Below, piece by piece: positions 26,092 to 45,756 of a stretch of DNA of 48,241 nt; positions within the stretch are counted from its first letter, which is position 1; every line of letters starts with the position of its first letter. The notes under the pieces are model-generated. The model saw only the letters and a list, made by a program, of their open reading frames with translations, was not told the origin of the DNA and did no database searches. Position numbers and translations under genes: made by a program. Origin of the DNA: a virus (lineage: Duplodnaviria > Heunggongvirae > Uroviricota > Caudoviricetes); IMG/VR virus record IMGVR_UViG_2617270956_000008, positions 1 through 48,241 of that record, one strand, 5' to 3'.

Positions 26092-27310
26092 CGTTCTTTT
26101 CCTCTTTGCCTTTCGTATCTTTAAAATCATTCAACGGATTTGCTGCATTTACGCTGACCAGCATTTCATCCAGACCATCAACCGGGTTCATGTCCTCAAA
26201 TGCCCTCGCTTCATTCCGGCTCATCCAGCCATCTGTAATGGCAAAGTGATAGAACTGCGCACGCTCCTGTGGGGTCCCACGGAGCAACCCTGTGAGGTTG
26301 AAACGAACGTAATACCCGGCAGCCCGTTCTGTACGGGTAAACAGGCGACGGTTAAGCTCCTGCTCCCAGTTCGCAACCCAGGGCATCATCGTGTAGCGAA
26401 CAAACTGAATCGCCTGCTGTGTAATATTCGAAAATGTGGCTTTTTCCAGGTCATTAATCATGTGCGCAGGAATATTGAAAATACCGGCAATCATTGAACG
26501 GTTCAGTTTCATCATGTCAATGATTTGAGCGTCAACTGGCGACACAGTCAGTGCCTTGTAATCCAGATCGGCTGGCAGCAGCATGGTTTTGTTTTCCTGG
26601 CTGCGTAACGCCTGCGATGCCTTCTGCCACTGATCTTTAAGCCAGCCCCAGCTGTCCTTATTGAGTCCGCTTTTAACGGATACTATCCCCGCCGGACGGG
26701 CATTACCGCTGAAGAAGCTTTCTGTGTATTTCTGACCGCTCATCCCCATGCCTATTGTTTCGGCATGTTGCATAATCGGACTAAGCCCCATCTTCTGATT
26801 ATTACCCAGCGCACGGATGTGGATCATATCGTCGGGGCTGATCGCAAACGCCCCATATTCGTTGTACAAACCGTAGGTGTATCGGCCACCAGTATTCATC
26901 AGCGTCGTTTCCCACGGCATACAGCAATCCAGGGATATGACTTCACCGCGACGATTACGTTTCACCCAGGTATACCCATTTCCCCAGCCAAGGATGTGAC
27001 GTTGCTTCAGTTCGCGCCATTTGTAACTGGTTTGCCAGGTATTGGGCTCATCATGAACCAGATAAAACGCCGGATGATCGCGTGCGGGCTCAACCTTCCC
27101 ATTGTGCCTGCGCATAACATGCAACGGCATCTGGGCAAGGCTGGAAGACAGGACATAGATACAGGAATACACCGCAGCCAGTTTCATCGCAGTTTCAGGA
27201 CTGACATAAACGTCTGCCCGGAACAGCCCATCAGTATCAACGGCATCCCCGGTTATCGGGGTGGAAGGATTCTCCAGTGATTTACTTCTGAACAGAGCAT
27301 CAAGCAGCAC
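26084..27310 (-). CDS. portal protein (HK97 family), 408 aa
   Basis: GTG start with AAGGGGG SD; size and position between the terminase and protease genes. Confidence 0.9.
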   Translation of the reverse strand: MLLDALFRSKSLENPSTPITGDAVDTDGLFRADVYVSPETAMKLAAVYSCIYVLSSSLAQMPLHVMRRHNGKVEPARDHPAFYLVHDEPNTWQTSYKWRELKQRHILGWGNGYTWVKRNRRGEVISLDCCMPWETTLMNTGGRYTYGLYNEYGAFAISPDDMIHIRALGNNQKMGLSPIMQHAETIGMGMSGQKYTESFFSGNARPAGIVSVKSGLNKDSWGWLKDQWQKASQALRSQENKTMLLPADLDYKALTVSPVDAQIIDMMKLNRSMIAGIFNIPAHMINDLEKATFSNITQQAIQFVRYTMMPWVANWEQELNRRLFTRTERAAGYYVRFNLTGLLRGTPQERAQFYHFAITDGWMSRNEARAFEDMNPVDGLDEMLVSVNAANPLNDFKDTKGKEEKNDE

Positions 27311-36263: not shown

Positions 36264-36419
36264 TTACTCCTCAGGTTCGTAAGCTGTGAAGACAGCGACC
36301 TCCGTCTGGCCGGTTCGGATTCGTACCTCGCAGAGGTCTTTCCTCGTTACCAGTGCCGTCACTATGACGGTTAAACAGATGACGATCAGGGCGATTAACA
36401 TCGCCTTTTGCTGCTTCAT
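36264..36419 (-). CDS. hokD: Hok/Gef-family type I toxin (HokD/RelF-like), 51 aa
   Basis: MKQQKAMLIALIVICLTVIVTALVTRKDLCEVRIRTGQTEVAVFTAYEPEE matches HokD/RelF as recalled; AAGGAG SD 9 nt upstream of the internal ATG. Confidence 0.85.
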   Translation of the reverse strand: MKQQKAMLIALIVICLTVIVTALVTRKDLCEVRIRTGQTEVAVFTAYEPEE

Positions 36420-36630
36420 AGCCTGCTTCTCCTTGCCTTTCGGCACGTAAGAGGCTAACCTACGTTTGTGAAGCATAGATTGGGCCTCAGATTAATGTTA
36501 AACGTCTTGCAGGACGCGTAATGTTAACTGGGGCTTTTCTCTATCTGCCGTTGGTGTTCATGCCCGAGGCAGATAGCCTCAAGCACCCGCAGCAATTCTA
36601 CTTAACTCACGTCACCTCGCCAATATAAAA

Positions 36631-39136: not shown

Positions 39137-39331
39137 AGATATACCTCCAGTTAAGGATTAAATTTTATTTACAGTGCTGAACTTAATTATTCAGATTTGG
39201 ATTATGCTTTCTCTTCACGAAGTTCCGATTGTTAATTTGGCTCACAACAGCACCTTCTGAAAATTACCCTGATAGAAAGCCAGTACACGCTGCATAGCTT
39301 CGCTCTTCCGGCACTCGCTACAGATTATGTT

Positions 39332-39664
39332 TTAACGCCTGTCGTAGCGGCGTATTTCTCCGTCTGGTAATGACCAGATAAGGTCAGGATCAACCACAGA
39401 TGGTTTCTTCAGATTTGCCCTTGAGAGTTTTTTGCGGGCGTTTTGCCAGTCCTTACGCGCCTGTTCAGACGGGAATAACCCGTAACCAGAGTTGTATACA
39501 TCGCCACTGGCAACCAGCTCTCTGGCGAGAACACTCATCAGATATCTTGTCGCACCTGTCTTGGCTTCCAGTTGCCGCAACGTCTCGCGACCGCTCAGAC
39601 GTACAAGTTCAACAACCTGCCCTTTAATTTTTTCCCGCTCTTCTTGTGTAAATACTTTTGCCAT
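39332..39664 (-). CDS. hypothetical phage protein (about 110 aa)
   Basis: ATG (M6 of the track ORF) with GGAGG SD 5 nt upstream. Confidence 0.45.
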   Translation of the reverse strand: MAKVFTQEEREKIKGQVVELVRLSGRETLRQLEAKTGATRYLMSVLARELVASGDVYNSGYGLFPSEQARKDWQNARKKLSRANLKKPSVVDPDLIWSLPDGEIRRYDRR

Positions 39665-39679
39665 AAGCGCCTCCGGCAA

Positions 39680-41139: not shown

Positions 41140-42043
41140 GGTTTACCCCCTTGCTGACTGGTTTAACCTGCGCCCTGACGTGATTTACGTGACGGGCGAA
41201 TTTCTGCTCCCACTGAATCTGCGTAAACACTTTCCCCTCCGCTGCCCAGTAGTCCCGGAAGGCGGCAAGTTCAGCAGGTGTAAATTCTGTCTCCGGCAAA
41301 GCCATCCCCCACAACGCAGCCCGTCGTCGAAAATCCCGTGACGGATACCAGCTATCGGTCATCGGAAATTTTCCGATGGGTTCGCTCAGGCCATCCAGGA
41401 ATACAAGGGGTGCTGCCTGTAACGACAAAACTTCCTGCTCACTGGTCGGAGCACTCTCGCGTGCGTTATGTGTGGGGTTTAGATCTTTGGGTTCCTTTGG
41501 GTTCCGTGATCCGTTTTTGGGTGTCTTTGATGGAAAATTTGGGTGTCTTTGGTTATTTTCCATGCAGCTAAGAGTTCCGTTTTTGGGTCTGTTTTGTGCT
41601 GAAACATAACCATTTTCGGTACTGTTTTTATTAACAGCACCAATTTTACCCACCTTTAAAGACTCCCGTTTTTGGGTGTATTCAGGCTCGGCAACACTTT
41701 CTTCTACACCGATAAGTCGGTACACCACAATTTGCTTTGTTCTGCCTTTTCTCTCACCGGTATCAACAATTAACCCAATCTCCATCAGGTGTCGTAAGCT
41801 GTCCTGCACAGTCTTTTTGTTCAGTTCCGTTACTTCTGCCAGTGCAGATACAGACGGGTATGCACACAAATCGGCACCGCACATATCAGCAAGCCAGGTC
41901 AATACAGACTTACTGGATGAACTGCCGGTTTTCACCTTTTTAGCCCATCGTAGTGCATCGATACTCATACAAACCCCTGGCAGACATTTGTTTATCTGCA
42001 AAGTAATATTGATATTGCTGACGATACGCATGCTTGAAAGCAA
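40928..42043 (-). CDS. replication initiator O-like protein (N-terminal HTH), up to 371 aa
   Basis: Position after the YdaT-like and Cro-like genes; the true start is probably the ATG at 41968 (MSIDALRWAKK...). Confidence 0.55.
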   Translation of the reverse strand: MLSSMRIVSNINITLQINKCLPGVCMSIDALRWAKKVKTGSSSSKSVLTWLADMCGADLCAYPSVSALAEVTELNKKTVQDSLRHLMEIGLIVDTGERKGRTKQIVVYRLIGVEESVAEPEYTQKRESLKVGKIGAVNKNSTENGYVSAQNRPKNGTLSCMENNQRHPNFPSKTPKNGSRNPKEPKDLNPTHNARESAPTSEQEVLSLQAAPLVFLDGLSEPIGKFPMTDSWYPSRDFRRRAALWGMALPETEFTPAELAAFRDYWAAEGKVFTQIQWEQKFARHVNHVRAQVKPVSKGVNHAAAPGGTASRAVQEIRAAREQWERENGFISDGNGLEAVGTHGGGLFEPLDPEERGRTFEALDCTDWRDD

Positions 42044-42702: not shown

Positions 42703-42778
42703 ATCGAACTCCTTAGATTTTCCTAAGGAAACTAGATCGTAGAGAAACCTAAGTCAAGAAAAATTAGAATTACCTAAT
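42703..42778. promoter_or_regulatory. divergent dicC/dicA promoter-operator region with four CCT(A/T)AG motifs
   Basis: CCTTAG 42711-42716, CCTAAGG 42722-42728, CCTAAG 42748-42753, CCTAAT 42773-42778. Confidence 0.5.
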
Positions 42779-43549: not shown

Positions 43550-43550
43550 T

Positions 43551-43754
43551 ATGGATTTCGACACAATCATGGAAAGGCTTACGAAGAATACTTCGAAGAC
43601 CTTGCCGAAGGCGAAGAAGCTCTCAGCTTCAGTGAGTTTAAACAGGCGCTTTCCAGCTCGGCAAAATCTAACGGCTGATAAGCGAAGTAGCACCGCGAGG
43701 AATCAGTATGCAGAAACGAGAACCCGTCATAATCGCGCCAGACTATACCGATGA
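43551..43754 (+). CDS. YdfB-like small protein (uncertain extent)
   Basis: ATG 1 nt after the ydfA TGA (MDFDTIMERL...); the ORF overlaps the ydfC start by 47 nt, so the real stop or frame may differ. Confidence 0.3.
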   Translation: MDFDTIMERLTKNTSKTLPKAKKLSASVSLNRRFPARQNLTADKRSSTARNQYAETRTRHNRARLYR

Positions 43755-43926: not shown

Positions 43927-44267
43927 TAGCTAACCAACGAAGCTAAGGTTGGTAATTAAGGAGTTCTCCACGGGTGAGGTGGAGTGCGTGCGCCGGACAC
44001 GGGTGAGCATCCGGCACTGACAGTTTACTGAAAGGATATTTCCCTGAAAAGTCAGACCATAACGCGAAAGCGCACGGCGAGGTAGCTGGTTCATAGATAG
44101 CCTGTCGTTAAATTTTCGTCGACCGTGCGCTTCCGGTTGTGGCAATCCGCGAAATGGCGCGGCGGTAAGTATGGCGGGGGTATTTCTTCCCCCGTTGAGG
44201 ACACCGGGTTGTCAGGTTGACCATACGCTTAAGTGACAACCCCGCTGCAACGCCCTCTGTTATCAAT

Positions 44268-44325
44268 TTTCTGGTGACGTTTGGCGGTATCAGTTCTACT
44301 CCGTGACTGCTCTGCCGCCCTTTTT
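44268..44325 (+). ncRNA. dicF: DicF small regulatory RNA
   Basis: TTTCTGGTGACGTTTGGCGGTATCAGTTCTACTCCGTGACTGCTCTGCCGCCCTTTTT nearly matches DicF as recalled; GGCGG/CCGCC terminator stem plus T-run. Confidence 0.8.
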
Positions 44326-44799
44326 AAAGTGAATTTTGTGATGCGGTGAATGCGGCTAAGCGCACGCGGAACAGTTAAAACCAAAAACAGTGTTATGGGT
44401 GGATTCTCTGTATCCGGCGTTAATTGTTAACTGGTTAACGTCACCTGGAGGCACCAGGCACCGCATCAACAAAGTTCACTTCGGTGATGAAAGGTAGAGA
44501 AAATGTTGAATGTAGCTATTGAAAACCAGAACGGGTGGAATTATAGTGCACCAGCACCTCATAAAACGGGTGCCGGGCGTGGAAACCCGAAATCATTCAC
44601 GGCGCATAACCGCGCTCAGGCGGTTTTTTTATGCGTTAAGCACAGCCACATTCGCATTATGGTGGGGCGTGCAGGGCAGCCGCAAGGCTGGCCGGGTTCC
44701 GTGATGACCGGTATTTCCACCCCTGTACGTCTCACCACCCTTATGGTCGTGGAAAACCTCGGTGGTGAGTTAATCAAATTCATCGCGGAGGCTGCCATC

Positions 44800-45357
44800 A
44801 TGGCTACTATCCTTACCCTTTCTCACCCTGACGTAACCATCGAAAATGGTCGCGCTGTCACTACGTCTGTTGCGATCGCCGAGTTCTTTGGCAAACGCCA
44901 CGAACGAGTGTTGGATAAAATTCACAATCTGGACTGTTCAGCAAAATTCACTGAGCACAATTTTGTGTTGAGCGAATACACCGACTCAACCGGGCGCAAA
45001 CTCCCAATGTACCAAATCACCAAAAACGGCTTCGTTTTCCTGGTGATGGGGTTCACAGGTAAAAAAGCCGCAACTTTCAAAGAAGCCTACATCGCTGAGT
45101 TCGATCGCATGGAGGAAGAACTGCGCCAGAATAACGCCCCGTCTCCCGACAAAATGATTCACGGGGACGGACGCACCCTGGTTATCCGTCTCGACGAACA
45201 CGGCAATATCAAATTCACTGAAACCGTTCCTGACGGCGCAATGGTCTGCACCCTGGATACCTTCCGGTTTTATCTGGAGAAACAAGGATGGACTCTTGTA
45301 AACCGGAGCGCAATTAAAAATATGACTGTGGAGCAATTGCTAAAAATTCATTGTTGA
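44800..45357 (+). CDS. Rha-family phage regulatory protein (possible antirepressor), 185 aa
   Basis: ATG with GGAGG SD 8 nt upstream; Rha-type motif RAVTTSVAIAEFFGKRHERVLDKIHNLD. The track ORF starts at 44503, but its N-terminal 99 aa look non-coding. Confidence 0.6.
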   Translation: MATILTLSHPDVTIENGRAVTTSVAIAEFFGKRHERVLDKIHNLDCSAKFTEHNFVLSEYTDSTGRKLPMYQITKNGFVFLVMGFTGKKAATFKEAYIAEFDRMEEELRQNNAPSPDKMIHGDGRTLVIRLDEHGNIKFTETVPDGAMVCTLDTFRFYLEKQGWTLVNRSAIKNMTVEQLLKIHC

Positions 45358-45367
45358 GGACGCGATA

Positions 45368-45556
45368 ATGGAAACGTCACTACCAAACGTTAATACGTCT
45401 GACGGGTGCTTTAATATTGGTGTTCTGCTCAGTAACAGGGATTTCACCGAGGATGCAATCAATATGAGAAAATATGAACCCTACCTGCTGAATGACAATT
45501 CCATACTCTCCAGAATTGCCCTTCTTAAACTCGGTATTTTCGGAGAGTGGCGATGA
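45368..45556 (+). CDS. dicB: cell-division inhibitor DicB, 62 aa
   Basis: LPNVNTSDGCFNIGV...FTEDAIN matches the N-terminal half of DicB as recalled. Confidence 0.8.
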   Translation: METSLPNVNTSDGCFNIGVLLSNRDFTEDAINMRKYEPYLLNDNSILSRIALLKLGIFGEWR

Positions 45557-45756
45557 ACACATTATTCATACTCATTCTGACTGTATATCTCAATACTGGT
45601 GAGTCGCTTGATGCAATCACCGGCATGTACAACTCAATGAAAGAATGCATGGCTGCCGCAGCGGAACAGAAAATTCCCGGCAACTGTTATCCGGTCGATA
45701 AAGTTATTCACATGGACAATAACGAAATCCCGGCAGGATTAAAAACAGCGCCGTAA
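45553..45756 (+). CDS. ydfD: YdfD-like small lysis-associated membrane protein, 67 aa
   Basis: ATGA overlap with the dicB stop; MNTLFILILTVYLNTGESLDAITGMYNSMKECMAAAAEQKIPGNCYPVDKVIH matches YdfD as recalled. Confidence 0.8.
   Translation: MNTLFILILTVYLNTGESLDAITGMYNSMKECMAAAAEQKIPGNCYPVDKVIHMDNNEIPAGLKTAP

What the first reader, a model, noticed from the sequence alone, without database searches (positions are those of the whole stretch)
44326..45357. Rha-family regulator inserted between dicF and dicB
As recalled for Qin, dicB follows dicF closely. Here about 1 kb including a Rha-domain gene separates them, preceded by clustered GTTAAC palindromes (44419-44440). Rha proteins can act as antirepressors or interfere with lysogeny, which would suit a repressor lacking a cleavage domain.
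Basis: partly seen in the sequence, partly recalled or inferred. Interest (0 to 1): 0.5.

Follow-up and report, generated by a model that had tools for sequence, protein, structure and literature searches.

The report
P4-type RNA-immunity cassette with Rha gene
The roughly 0.9 kb between dicF and dicB is a self-contained phage switch of a known type (two small regulatory RNAs that keep a Rha-family regulator gene silent); it is ordinary in kind and unusual only in where it sits.

Summary
DicF (44269-44320) and dicB (45368-45556) are 1047 nt apart, against 174 nt in K-12 Qin. The difference is one block of about 874 bp (about 44469-45342). It occurs at this place in 315 of 5426 complete E. coli genomes; 3838 have the short K-12 form. 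The GTTAAC pair lies outside the block and is also in K-12.

The block is more than a Rha gene. The 5' third of the 284-aa ORF holds a sigma-70-like promoter, an isrK/seqA-type sRNA with terminator (44554-44630) and a C4/CI-type antisense RNA (44655-44742). The C4 loops are complementary to the Shine-Dalgarno region of an in-frame internal start (ATG 44800), which gives a 185-aa Rha protein. This matches the immunity design of satellite phage P4 (nested eta/kil genes with CI RNA), P1/P7 immI (c4-icd-ant) and Salmonella Gifsy-1 (isrK-orf45-anrP). In 98 related leaders the loops and their targets co-vary.

The antirepressor idea is plausible by analogy, because the C-terminal domain is shared with AnrP-type effectors and the DicA-like repressor has no cleavage domain. 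It is untested, and there is no LexA box. Verdict: a new member and placement of a known kind; modest interest.

The parts
44269..44320 (+). DicF sRNA. It is the upstream neighbour and not part of the insert; its terminator T-run extends to about 44326.
   Evidence: Rfam RF00039, 72.4 bits against a gathering score of 48; nearly identical to K-12.
44332..44473 (+). Conserved dicB leader shared with K-12. It contains the GTTAAT/GTTAAC/GTTAAC hairpin (44416-44442) and the CCTGG/CCAGG hairpin. The insert truncates it.
   Evidence: Identical in K-12. Sub-threshold Rfam STnc100 match: 38 bits, model positions 22-154. K-12 matches the whole model, 1-206.
44469..45342 (+). The extra block relative to K-12 Qin (about 874 bp). 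It is flanked by a degenerate direct repeat of the dicB leader: ACAAAGTTCAC..GAAAGG..ATG on the left and AAAAATTCATT..GAGGA..ATG on the right.
   Evidence: Alignments to K-12; junction comparison with other prophages.
44503..45357 (+). Long ORF (284 aa, 'Ash' + Rha), the counterpart of P4 eta. It starts upstream of the internal promoter and is probably translated only from transcripts coming from upstream (the dicBF operon).
   Evidence: PGAP CDS WP_032290540.1. Pfam Phage_ASH at aa 14-109 and Phage_pRha at aa 120-205. The N-terminal 110 aa align with P4 Eta at 44% identity. The frame is stop-free in 56 of 56 related leaders, with 0 polymorphic stop positions against 14 and 15 in the other two frames. 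An upstream ATG is present in 53 of 54 contexts.
44519..44547 (+). Internal sigma-70-type promoter (TTGAAA-17 nt-TATAGT), the counterpart of P4 PLE and Gifsy-1 PisrK.
   Evidence: Consensus scan, 10 of 12 matches. It is at the same position as the Gifsy-1 isrK promoter TTGACA/TATATT (PMC4825925).
44554..44630 (+). isrK/seqA-type sRNA. It carries decoy sites a1 (44579-44585 GUGGAAA) and b1 (44597-44602 UCACGG) and ends in an intrinsic terminator (stem 44608-44625, then a U-run).
   Evidence: Rfam RF01394, 67.7 bits against a gathering score of 50; terminator scan; complementarity to C4.
44655..44742 (+). C4/CI-type antisense RNA. Recognition loop b' is at 44697-44707 (UUCCGUGAUGA) and single-stranded a' at 44714-44720 (UUUCCAC).
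   Evidence: Rfam RF01695, 81.9 bits against a gathering score of 45. Covariation in 45 leaders: 91.6% of cells paired, hairpin 1 with 5 of 5 compensatory pairs.
44749..44791 (+). Target region: a2 (44749-44755 GUGGAAA), b2 (44780-44790 UCAUCGCGGAG) and the Shine-Dalgarno GGAGG (44787-44791) of the nested start.
   Evidence: Contiguous pairing of 7 nt and 11 nt with a' and b'. Across 98 leaders there are 35 different b' loops, each matched by its own b2 (median 10.5 nt) ending 8-9 nt before the ATG.
44800..45357 (+). Nested short gene (185 aa). It has a Rha domain (aa 21-106) and a C-terminal domain of about 60 aa shared with AnrP-type effectors. Its start is homologous to the P4 kil start.
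   Evidence: Pfam Phage_pRha, E 2.6e-30. Third-codon-position variation begins exactly here: 59/52/101 variable columns by codon position, against no periodicity upstream. EAAIMAT(I/T)LT is conserved with P4. C-terminal domain is 43-44% identical to ORF6N- and Bro-N-type effectors, E about 1e-19.
45368..45556 (+). dicB (62 aa; 64% identical to K-12 DicB). It starts 10 nt after the Rha stop and so lies downstream of the cassette's internal promoter.
   Evidence: Pfam DicB, E 1.3e-32; comparison with K-12.

Best explanation
The block is a portable RNA-immunity and effector cassette of the P4/P1 type, sitting in the early-left (dicBF) operon of a Qin-like prophage.

Shown here by sequence and comparison:
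- An internal constitutive-looking promoter (44519-44547) would start a transcript at about 44554.
- The first 77 nt form an isrK/seqA-type RNA that ends in an intrinsic terminator.
- Read-through RNA contains a C4/CI-type antisense RNA. Its a' and b' elements are complementary to a2 and b2 just downstream, and b2 overlaps the Shine-Dalgarno sequence of ATG 44800. They are also complementary to decoy sites a1 and b1 in the isrK-like RNA.
- A long ORF that starts upstream of the promoter (ATG 44503) runs in frame through both RNA genes into the Rha gene.

Inferred from P4, P1 and Gifsy-1:
- In the repressed prophage only the internal promoter fires. It yields the two small RNAs.
- C4 blocks translation of the 185-aa Rha protein and probably causes premature termination. 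That would also keep the downstream toxic dicB silent despite the internal promoter.
- When DicA repression is lifted, transcripts from the dicBF promoter that pass DicF carry the upstream start. Ribosomes translating the long ORF would melt the terminator and the C4 pairings, as Eta translation does in P4. The 284-aa form and dicB would then be made, insensitive to the RNA immunity.
- Excess isrK-like RNA could also titrate C4 and switch on the short form, as in Gifsy-1.
- The protein belongs to the domain-shuffling 'Bro network' and most likely acts as an antirepressor-like regulator of a prophage repressor. The target is unknown; the resident DicA-like protein is one candidate.
For: - RNA genes: isrK and C4 score above Rfam gathering thresholds, in the same order and spacing as in Gifsy-1, a Stx2a phage, P4 and P1.
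- Promoter and terminator are found at the expected places.
- Complementarity: a'/a2 is 7 nt and b'/b2 is 11 nt, overlapping the Shine-Dalgarno sequence. a1 and b1 lie in the isrK-like RNA.
- Comparative proof of pairing: 98 unique leaders from viral contigs carry 35 b' and 16 a' variants, each matched by its own targets. Cognate b'-b2 pairing has a median of 10 nt against 7 nt for non-cognate pairs; only 4% of non-cognate pairs reach the cognate median.
- On alignment A5 the covariation score is 0.241 against 0.117 in shuffles (0 of 500 shuffles reach it). All 9 b'-b2 pairs show changes on both sides.
- Nested-gene design: codon periodicity starts at 44800. The upstream frame is nevertheless kept open in 56 of 56 leaders, with only 3-nt length changes (141 or 138 nt) and no polymorphic stops, against 14 and 15 in the other frames.
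- An upstream in-frame ATG, often with a GGAGG Shine-Dalgarno, is present in 53 of 54 contexts.
- The N-terminus aligns with P4 Eta, and the nested start aligns with the kil start.
- Published mechanisms: the P4 mechanism is summarised in PMC10111431, the Gifsy-1 mechanism in PMC4825925, and the P1 immI features are annotated in NC_005856.
- Effector class: leaders of this type precede Rha, ORF6N (AnrP), AntA and Bro-N proteins. The window's C-terminal domain is shared with these.
Against: - No expression data were examined. The promoter, terminator and RNA processing are predictions.
- The region upstream of 44800 shows no codon periodicity, so translation of the long form rests only on the conserved open frame and upstream ATG.
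- In the window the long ORF has its own weak Shine-Dalgarno sequence (GAAAGG). It is not translationally coupled to an upstream gene as eta is in P4.
- DicF's terminator lies between the dicBF promoter and the cassette.
- No repressor target is identified. The N-terminal domain (Rha) differs from AnrP (ORF6N) and from P1 Ant (ANT/KilAC).
- The structure model is only moderate (pLDDT 67.9; the C-terminal domain is poor) and has no significant PDB match.
- The prophage carries several pseudogenes, so the cassette may no longer serve induction.
Confidence: 0.72

Rival explanations
1. Plain protein gene. The 284-aa ORF is simply a two-domain (Ash + Rha) transcriptional regulator, as annotated by PGAP, and the RNA-family matches are incidental.
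For: PGAP and most databases call a 282-285-aa protein. Pfam has an 'Ash' family that matches aa 14-109. The frame is kept open.
Against: Both Rfam matches are well above gathering score. The loops and their targets co-vary across 35 variants. A promoter and an intrinsic terminator sit inside the ORF. The 'Ash' part shows no codon periodicity. The Pfam Ash match in P4 lies over the experimentally established CI RNA (PMC10111431).
Confidence: 0.04
2. Same cassette, different effector role. The Rha protein is not an antirepressor. It could be a DNA-binding transcription factor, or a host-directed or killing function like P4 Kil or P1 Icd, expressed together with DicB.
For: The Rha domain is described as a winged-helix DNA-binding module (PMC8951638). 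The top, non-significant Foldseek matches are PadR-like winged-helix regulators. A Bro-network member (CapR) acts as a repressor (PMC10111431). At the homologous position P4 has Kil, and P1 has the division inhibitor Icd.
Against: The C-terminal domain is shared with AnrP-type proteins, and AnrP drives Gifsy-1 induction (PMC4825925). Other effectors behind this leader carry AntA and Bro-N antirepressor-associated domains. None of this is direct evidence.
Confidence: 0.25
3. Relic. The cassette is an inert passenger in a decaying prophage; only DicF and DicB matter to the host.
For: The prophage has a frameshifted integrase and ydfB, an internal stop in a DUF977 gene and a truncated stfP. K-12 Qin does without the cassette.
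Against: Every element is intact: promoter, terminator, both RNAs, all four target sites, the Shine-Dalgarno sequence and both starts. The cassette is kept at this locus in 315 genomes at 83-100% identity, with the frame preserved.
Confidence: 0.12

Closest known systems
Satellite phage P4 immunity region (PLE-seqA-cI RNA-seqC, with nested genes eta and kil)
   Same: Order and spacing of the isrK/seqA-type and C4/CI-type RNAs are the same. A long ORF starts upstream of the internal promoter and runs through both RNAs. The nested in-frame start has a conserved EAAIMAT(T/I)LT..SHP context. The N-terminal 110 aa are 44% identical to Eta.
   Different: Beyond the first 12 or so codons, the effector is a Rha-domain protein of 185 aa and not the 65-aa Kil. 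The long ORF has its own start and is not coupled to an upstream vis/alpA gene. The host element is a lambdoid Qin-like prophage, not a satellite.
Phage P1/P7 immI operon (c4-icd-ant1/ant2)
   Same: The layout is a1, b1, then C4 RNA, then a2, b2, with b2 over the ribosome-binding site of the first gene. An antirepressor-class effector is present. In both cases a cell-division inhibitor is co-transcribed: Icd in P1, DicB here.
   Different: There is no icd gene. The effector has a Rha domain where P1 Ant has an ANT/KilAC domain. No prophage-repressor operator was found at the promoter. P1 lacks the isrK-type terminator match.
Salmonella Gifsy-1 isrK-orf45-anrP-isrJ locus (Hershko-Shalev 2016, PMC4825925)
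   Same: The promoter, isrK, terminator, C4-like STnc1160, target sites and effector come in the same order. The effector's C-terminal domain is homologous.
   Different: In Gifsy-1 orf45 is a separate 45-codon ORF whose stop overlaps the anrP start. Here the same ATG (44659) reads in frame into the effector. The N-terminal domain is Rha, not ORF6N. There is no isrJ. In Gifsy-1 the locus sits next to the Q antiterminator; here it is in the early-left operon.
Rha/'antirepressor' genes of Stx-converting phages (for example Stx2a_1447, between cII and O)
   Same: The leader and Rha domain are 75-80% identical in DNA, with the same nested design and open frame.
   Different: The genomic position differs (early-right operon). 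The long ORF is longer (383 aa, start overlapping the cII stop). The C-terminal domain and the a'/b' specificities are different.

Membership tests
Rfam C4 antisense RNA (RF01695; P1/P7 C4, P4 CI) | Covariance-model score above the gathering threshold, with the long closing helix and two hairpins | tested here: met
   81.9 bits against a threshold of 45, full model 1-87. Helices are 99-100% paired in 45 homologues, and hairpin 1 is fully compensatory.
Rfam C4 antisense RNA (RF01695; P1/P7 C4, P4 CI) | Loop b' and single strand a' are complementary to downstream a2/b2, with b2 over the ribosome-binding site | tested here: met
   Pairing of 11 nt and 7 nt, with b2 overlapping GGAGG at 44787-44791. 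The pairing co-varies in 98 leaders.
Rfam C4 antisense RNA (RF01695; P1/P7 C4, P4 CI) | The mature RNA is excised from the leader transcript (RNase P / PNPase) | not testable with these tools
   Needs RNA end-mapping.
Rfam isrK / P4 seqA (RF01394) | Score above the gathering threshold, own promoter, intrinsic terminator, and a1/b1 sites complementary to C4 | tested here: met
   67.7 bits against a threshold of 50. Promoter matches 10 of 12 positions and the terminator is found. a1 is 7 nt and b1 is 6 nt. Promoter activity itself was not tested.
P4 eta/kil-type nested 'Bro network' gene | A long ORF begins upstream of the internal promoter and spans the immunity RNAs in frame with a shorter gene whose start is under RNA control | tested here: met
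   ATG 44503 lies 16 nt upstream of the -35 element. The frame is open in 56 of 56 leaders, with no polymorphic stops. The ORF aligns with Eta and the kil start.
P4 eta/kil-type nested 'Bro network' gene | [quoted passage not shown] | tested here: not met
   In the window no upstream gene overlaps the start; a TGA at 44488 is followed by ATG 44503 with its own GAAAGG. Coupling is seen in the Stx2a phage, where the start overlaps the cII stop. The anti-termination effect cannot be tested here.
P1 immI operon | An icd gene directly after b2, followed by ant with an ANT/KilAC domain | tested here: not met
   The Rha gene follows b2 directly. P1 Ant1 has PF03374, whereas the window protein has PF09669 only.
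Gifsy-1 isrK-orf45-anrP | A separate upstream ORF (orf45) whose stop overlaps the effector start; effector with an ORF6N domain | tested here: not met
   The ATG 44659 frame continues into Rha, 141 nt, phase 0. AnrP has ORF6N. Only the C-terminal domain is shared.
Pfam Phage_pRha (PF09669) | Domain score above the Pfam cut-off | tested here: met
   105.3 bits against a cut-off of 29.9, aa 21-106 of the short form.
LexA-controlled antirepressors (Gifsy GfoA type, N15 AntC, SPC32H Ant; recalled from the literature) | A LexA box at the antirepressor promoter | tested here: not met
   No match to the 20-nt consensus at up to 3 mismatches anywhere in the window. No CTGT-N8-ACAG at up to 1 mismatch between 43646 and 48241.
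Antirepressor (functional class) | Binds and inactivates a prophage repressor | not testable with these tools
   Only indirect support: cassette type, Bro-network domains and an AnrP-like C-terminal domain.

The most novel reading that the evidence does not exclude
The cassette rewires the dicBF operon. Because its internal promoter lies upstream of dicB, the toxic division inhibitor DicB (and the genes after it) would come under C4-RNA immunity. The dual-coding leader (RNA genes that are also an open reading frame) would act as a translational bypass: only transcripts from the DicA-controlled promoter make the long Rha form plus DicB. If the Rha protein in turn inactivates DicA, this would be a self-reinforcing induction switch for a repressor that cannot be cleaved. 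It would have been assembled independently into the same logic as P1 immI (C4 RNA, division inhibitor, antirepressor).
Probability: 0.15. Interest if true: 0.55.

Novelty: new member of a known kind. Interest (0 to 1): 0.3.

Why it matters
- For annotation: genes called 'Rha family regulator' with an 'Ash domain' in E. coli and Stx phages contain a promoter and two regulatory RNAs. The Pfam Ash family largely reflects the translated RNA genes. Work on Stx-phage regulatory regions still treats Ash as a protein domain of unknown function (PMC8951638).
- For biology: about 6% of complete E. coli genomes carry this cassette between dicF and dicB. In those strains DicB expression, and perhaps prophage derepression, is probably governed by an RNA-immunity layer that K-12 lacks. 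Conclusions about dicBF drawn from K-12 may therefore not transfer.
- None of this is a new principle. The P4, P1 and Gifsy-1 systems already explain the design.

Tried and rejected
- LexA box: none near the cassette.
- DicA-operator-like palindrome: CCTTAG-N6-CTAAGG is present between dicC and dicA at 42711-42728, but there is none near the cassette promoter.
- GTTAAC palindromes as insertion signals: rejected. They are present in K-12 and are not enriched in the window.
- 'The 284-aa ORF is merely an over-call': this was my working view after the promoter, RNA and periodicity results. I revised it when the frame proved to be protected from stops, with a conserved upstream ATG and homology to P4 Eta.
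- Structure route: the AlphaFold2 model from a shallow alignment reached pLDDT 67.9, with a poorly modelled C-terminal domain. Foldseek against the PDB gave no match with E below 0.2, and phmmer against PDB sequences found nothing. This route is uninformative.
- Homology search with the C-terminal 90 aa alone returned only fragments of the same protein. The shared C-terminal domain was found by comparing effectors extracted from the viral loci instead.
- Literature: no paper held in the library mentions a Rha gene in the dicBF operon. Forti et al. 1999 on P4 eta/kil is not held; I relied on its summary in PMC10111431.

Full report

Rfam places DicF at 44269-44320, and Pfam identifies dicB at 45368-45556. 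In K-12 MG1655, fetched as locus L002, DicF ends 174 nt before dicB. In the window the distance is 1047 nt.

Alignments to K-12 are nearly identical up to about 44468 and again from about 45343. One block of about 874 bp accounts for the difference.

The window is 100% identical over 44200-45600 to E. coli THO-006. There PGAP annotates a 284-aa 'Rha family phage regulatory protein' at exactly 44503-45357.

Among 5426 complete E. coli genomes, 315 have the window-type dicF-insert-dicB stretch. A contiguous K-12-type dicF-dicB is found in 3838, and 394 carry this cassette anywhere.

The GTTAAC sites at 44426 and 44434 lie outside the block and are identical in K-12. They are not enriched in the window. 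They form a hairpin of a conserved dicB leader that gives a sub-threshold STnc100 match, which the insert truncates.

**2. What is in the block?**

An Rfam gathering-threshold scan found two RNA genes inside the 5' third of the ORF:
- isrK at 44554-44630 (67.7 bits);
- C4 antisense RNA at 44655-44742 (81.9 bits).

A TTGAAA-17-TATAGT promoter lies at 44519-44547, and an intrinsic terminator at 44608-44625 followed by a T-run.

The C4 hairpin loop (44697-44707) pairs over 11 nt with 44780-44790, which overlaps the GGAGG Shine-Dalgarno sequence 8 nt before ATG 44800. The single-stranded UUUCCAC (44714-44720) pairs with GUGGAAA at 44749-44755. The same two C4 elements also match sites in the isrK-like RNA, at 44579-44585 and 44597-44602. 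This is the a1-b1 / C4 / a2-b2 layout annotated for the phage P1 immI operon.

The same order of elements occurs in three other places:
- Salmonella Gifsy-1, upstream of anrP;
- a Stx2a phage, between cII and O;
- satellite phage P4.

**3. Comparative test of the pairing**

An exact-match scan of viral contigs with the conserved 3' strand of C4 returned 120 loci. From these I extracted 98 unique leaders. They carry 35 different b' loops and 16 different a' segments.

Each leader has matching b2 sites (median 10.5 nt contiguous) and a2 sites (7 nt), and usually matching b1 and a1. The b2 site ends 8-9 nt before the effector ATG. Cognate pairings are longer than non-cognate ones.

On a 45-sequence alignment, 91.6% of cells pair. 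The covariation score is 0.241 against 0.117 in shuffles, and sliding the partners abolishes the signal. All nine b'-b2 pairs and all five pairs of C4 hairpin 1 show changes on both sides. The RNA interactions are therefore under selection, as in P1/P7 and P4.

**4. Where does the protein start?**

Among 56 unique Rha-type homologues, third-codon-position variation appears only from 44800 onward. Variable columns by codon position are 59/52/101 there, against 14/14/14 in the C4 region. The SD-ATG at 44800 is also the C4 target. The 185-aa form is thus clearly a coding unit.

Against my first expectation, the upstream frame is also protected:
- It contains no stop in any of the 56 leaders.
- The distance from the ATG at the 5' edge of C4 (44659) to ATG 44800 is always 141 or 138 nt.
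- There are 0 polymorphic stop positions in this frame, against 14 and 15 in the other two.
- In 53 of 54 distinct genomic contexts an in-frame ATG, often with a GGAGG Shine-Dalgarno, lies at least 51 nt upstream of the isrK 5' end.

This is the nested-gene design of P4. The long gene eta starts upstream of the constitutive promoter PLE and runs through seqA, CI and seqC in frame with the short gene kil.

The window ORF aligns with P4 Eta over its first 110 residues (44% identity). The nested start context EAAIMAT(I/T)LT..SHP is conserved with the kil start.

PMC10111431, citing Forti et al. 1999, summarises the P4 mechanism in four steps:
- The internal promoter gives a quickly terminated transcript that is processed into CI RNA.
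- Kil is made only on read-through.
- Full-length Eta is translated only from an upstream promoter.
- Eta translation prevents termination.

The same paper lists Phage_ASH among 'Bro network' domains and notes that the Rfam C4 and isrK models detect CI and seqA relatives.

The Pfam 'Ash' match of the window ORF (aa 14-109) coincides with the two RNA genes. In P4 it coincides with the CI RNA inside the obsolete 'cI protein' CDS.

**5. The effector**

The 185-aa protein has a Phage_pRha domain (aa 21-106) and a C-terminal domain of about 60 aa.

Leaders of this type precede proteins with Rha, ORF6N (AnrP), AntA or Bro-N N-terminal domains, or a small 'Derepression'-like protein. The window's C-terminal domain is 43-44% identical (E about 1e-19) to that of ORF6N- and Bro-N-type effectors. 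It clusters with Gifsy-1 AnrP.

According to PMC4825925, AnrP raises antQ expression and induces Gifsy-1. P1 Ant, in contrast, has an ANT/KilAC domain.

An AlphaFold2 model was only moderately confident (pLDDT 67.9) and found no significant PDB neighbour. An antirepressor-like role is therefore an inference from cassette type and domain family; it has not been demonstrated.

**6. Context**

The surrounding element is a nearly full-length Qin-family prophage. Its genes include dicC, a dicA-like gene, ydfA/B/C, dicF, dicB, a DUF1482 gene, exonuclease, replication, hokD/sok, lysis and a contractile-tail morphogenesis module. Several genes are pseudogenes.

Its DicA-like repressor is 63% identical to K-12 DicA and has only an HTH domain. 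DicB is 64% identical to K-12 DicB.

Neither a LexA box nor a DicA-operator-like palindrome lies near the cassette.

The left edge of the cassette resembles the dicB leader and start (ACAAAGTTCAC..GAAAGG..ATG). The block is thus flanked by a degenerate direct repeat. Other prophages share the left junction but have a different right junction and dicB allele. This fits modular exchange, and deletion between the repeats could give the K-12 form.

**7. Mechanism, novelty and verdict**

Most likely mechanism:
- In the repressed prophage the internal promoter produces the isrK-like and C4-like RNAs.
- C4 occludes the Rha ribosome-binding site and probably imposes polarity. This also shields the cell from dicB expression driven by the internal promoter.
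- Transcripts arriving from the DicA-controlled promoter carry ATG 44503. Translation of the long frame would disrupt the terminator and the C4 pairings, giving the long Rha form and DicB.
- Excess isrK-like RNA could also titrate C4.

The steps up to the RNA pairings and the nested frames are shown by sequence comparison. The regulatory outcomes and the protein's target are inferred from P4, P1 and Gifsy-1.

This is a known kind of system. The cassette's residence in the dicBF operon, and its possible consequence for dicB control, do not appear in the papers I could search. The finding is a correct observation with a partly right interpretation, of modest interest.

Noticed in passing
window 44542-44829 (aa 14-109 of the 284-aa ORF); L125 (phage P4) 8329-8521: The Pfam family Phage_ASH (PF10554) matches the conceptual translation of the isrK/seqA and C4/CI RNA genes. 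In P4 it falls on the obsolete 'cI gene product' CDS that contains the CI RNA. The 'Ash domain' annotated in many Rha proteins therefore mostly reflects RNA genes that are kept in an open frame.
   Followed up: yes
window 44332-44473; L002 (K-12) 2619-2828: The dicF-dicB spacer, including the GTTAAC hairpin, gives a sub-threshold match to Rfam STnc100 (38 and 34.4 bits; gathering score 47). K-12 matches the whole model, reaching into the first codons of dicB. In the window the cassette cuts the match at model position 154.
   Followed up: partly
window 44390-44473; L002 2691-2984: In K-12 a GTG 105 nt upstream of dicB is in frame with dicB without any stop, giving a possible 97-aa form. This explains the PGAP 'DicB, partial' pseudogene called upstream of the cassette in THO-006. 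Whether the extension is ever translated is unknown.
   Followed up: partly
loci L011, L022, L035, L039 and others (IMG/VR): In cassettes whose predicted effector is a 77-aa 'MANRKQ..' protein (weak Pfam 'Derepression' match), the ORF starting at the 5' ATG of C4 continues for at least 120 codons in a different frame. The true effector or a nested arrangement there may have been mis-called by my script.
   Followed up: no
window 36414-36588 (-): A sok antisense RNA (Rfam, 113 bits) lies next to an annotated hokD toxin gene: a type I toxin-antitoxin pair inside the prophage.
   Followed up: no
window 41622-41637, 10858-10873, 26329-26344: Three perfect CTGT-N8-ACAG sequences (LexA-box-like half-sites). 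CTGT-N8-ACAG with up to 1 mismatch is more frequent than in shuffles (27 found, 14 +/- 4 expected). None lies near the cassette.
   Followed up: no
window 1-about 9000: Beyond the tail-fibre end of the prophage lies a block with repL, two H-NS-family genes, an HTH regulator and a ComEA-family gene. It looks like a separate mobile island or plasmid-derived segment.
   Followed up: no
window 43550-43680 (ydfB); 48213-48241 and beyond (integrase start; gene runs off the window end); about 39240-39665 (DUF977); about 12135-12440 (stfP): PGAP marks ydfB and the integrase as frameshifted, a DUF977 gene as having an internal stop and stfP as truncated. The prophage is probably defective although nearly full length.
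   Followed up: no
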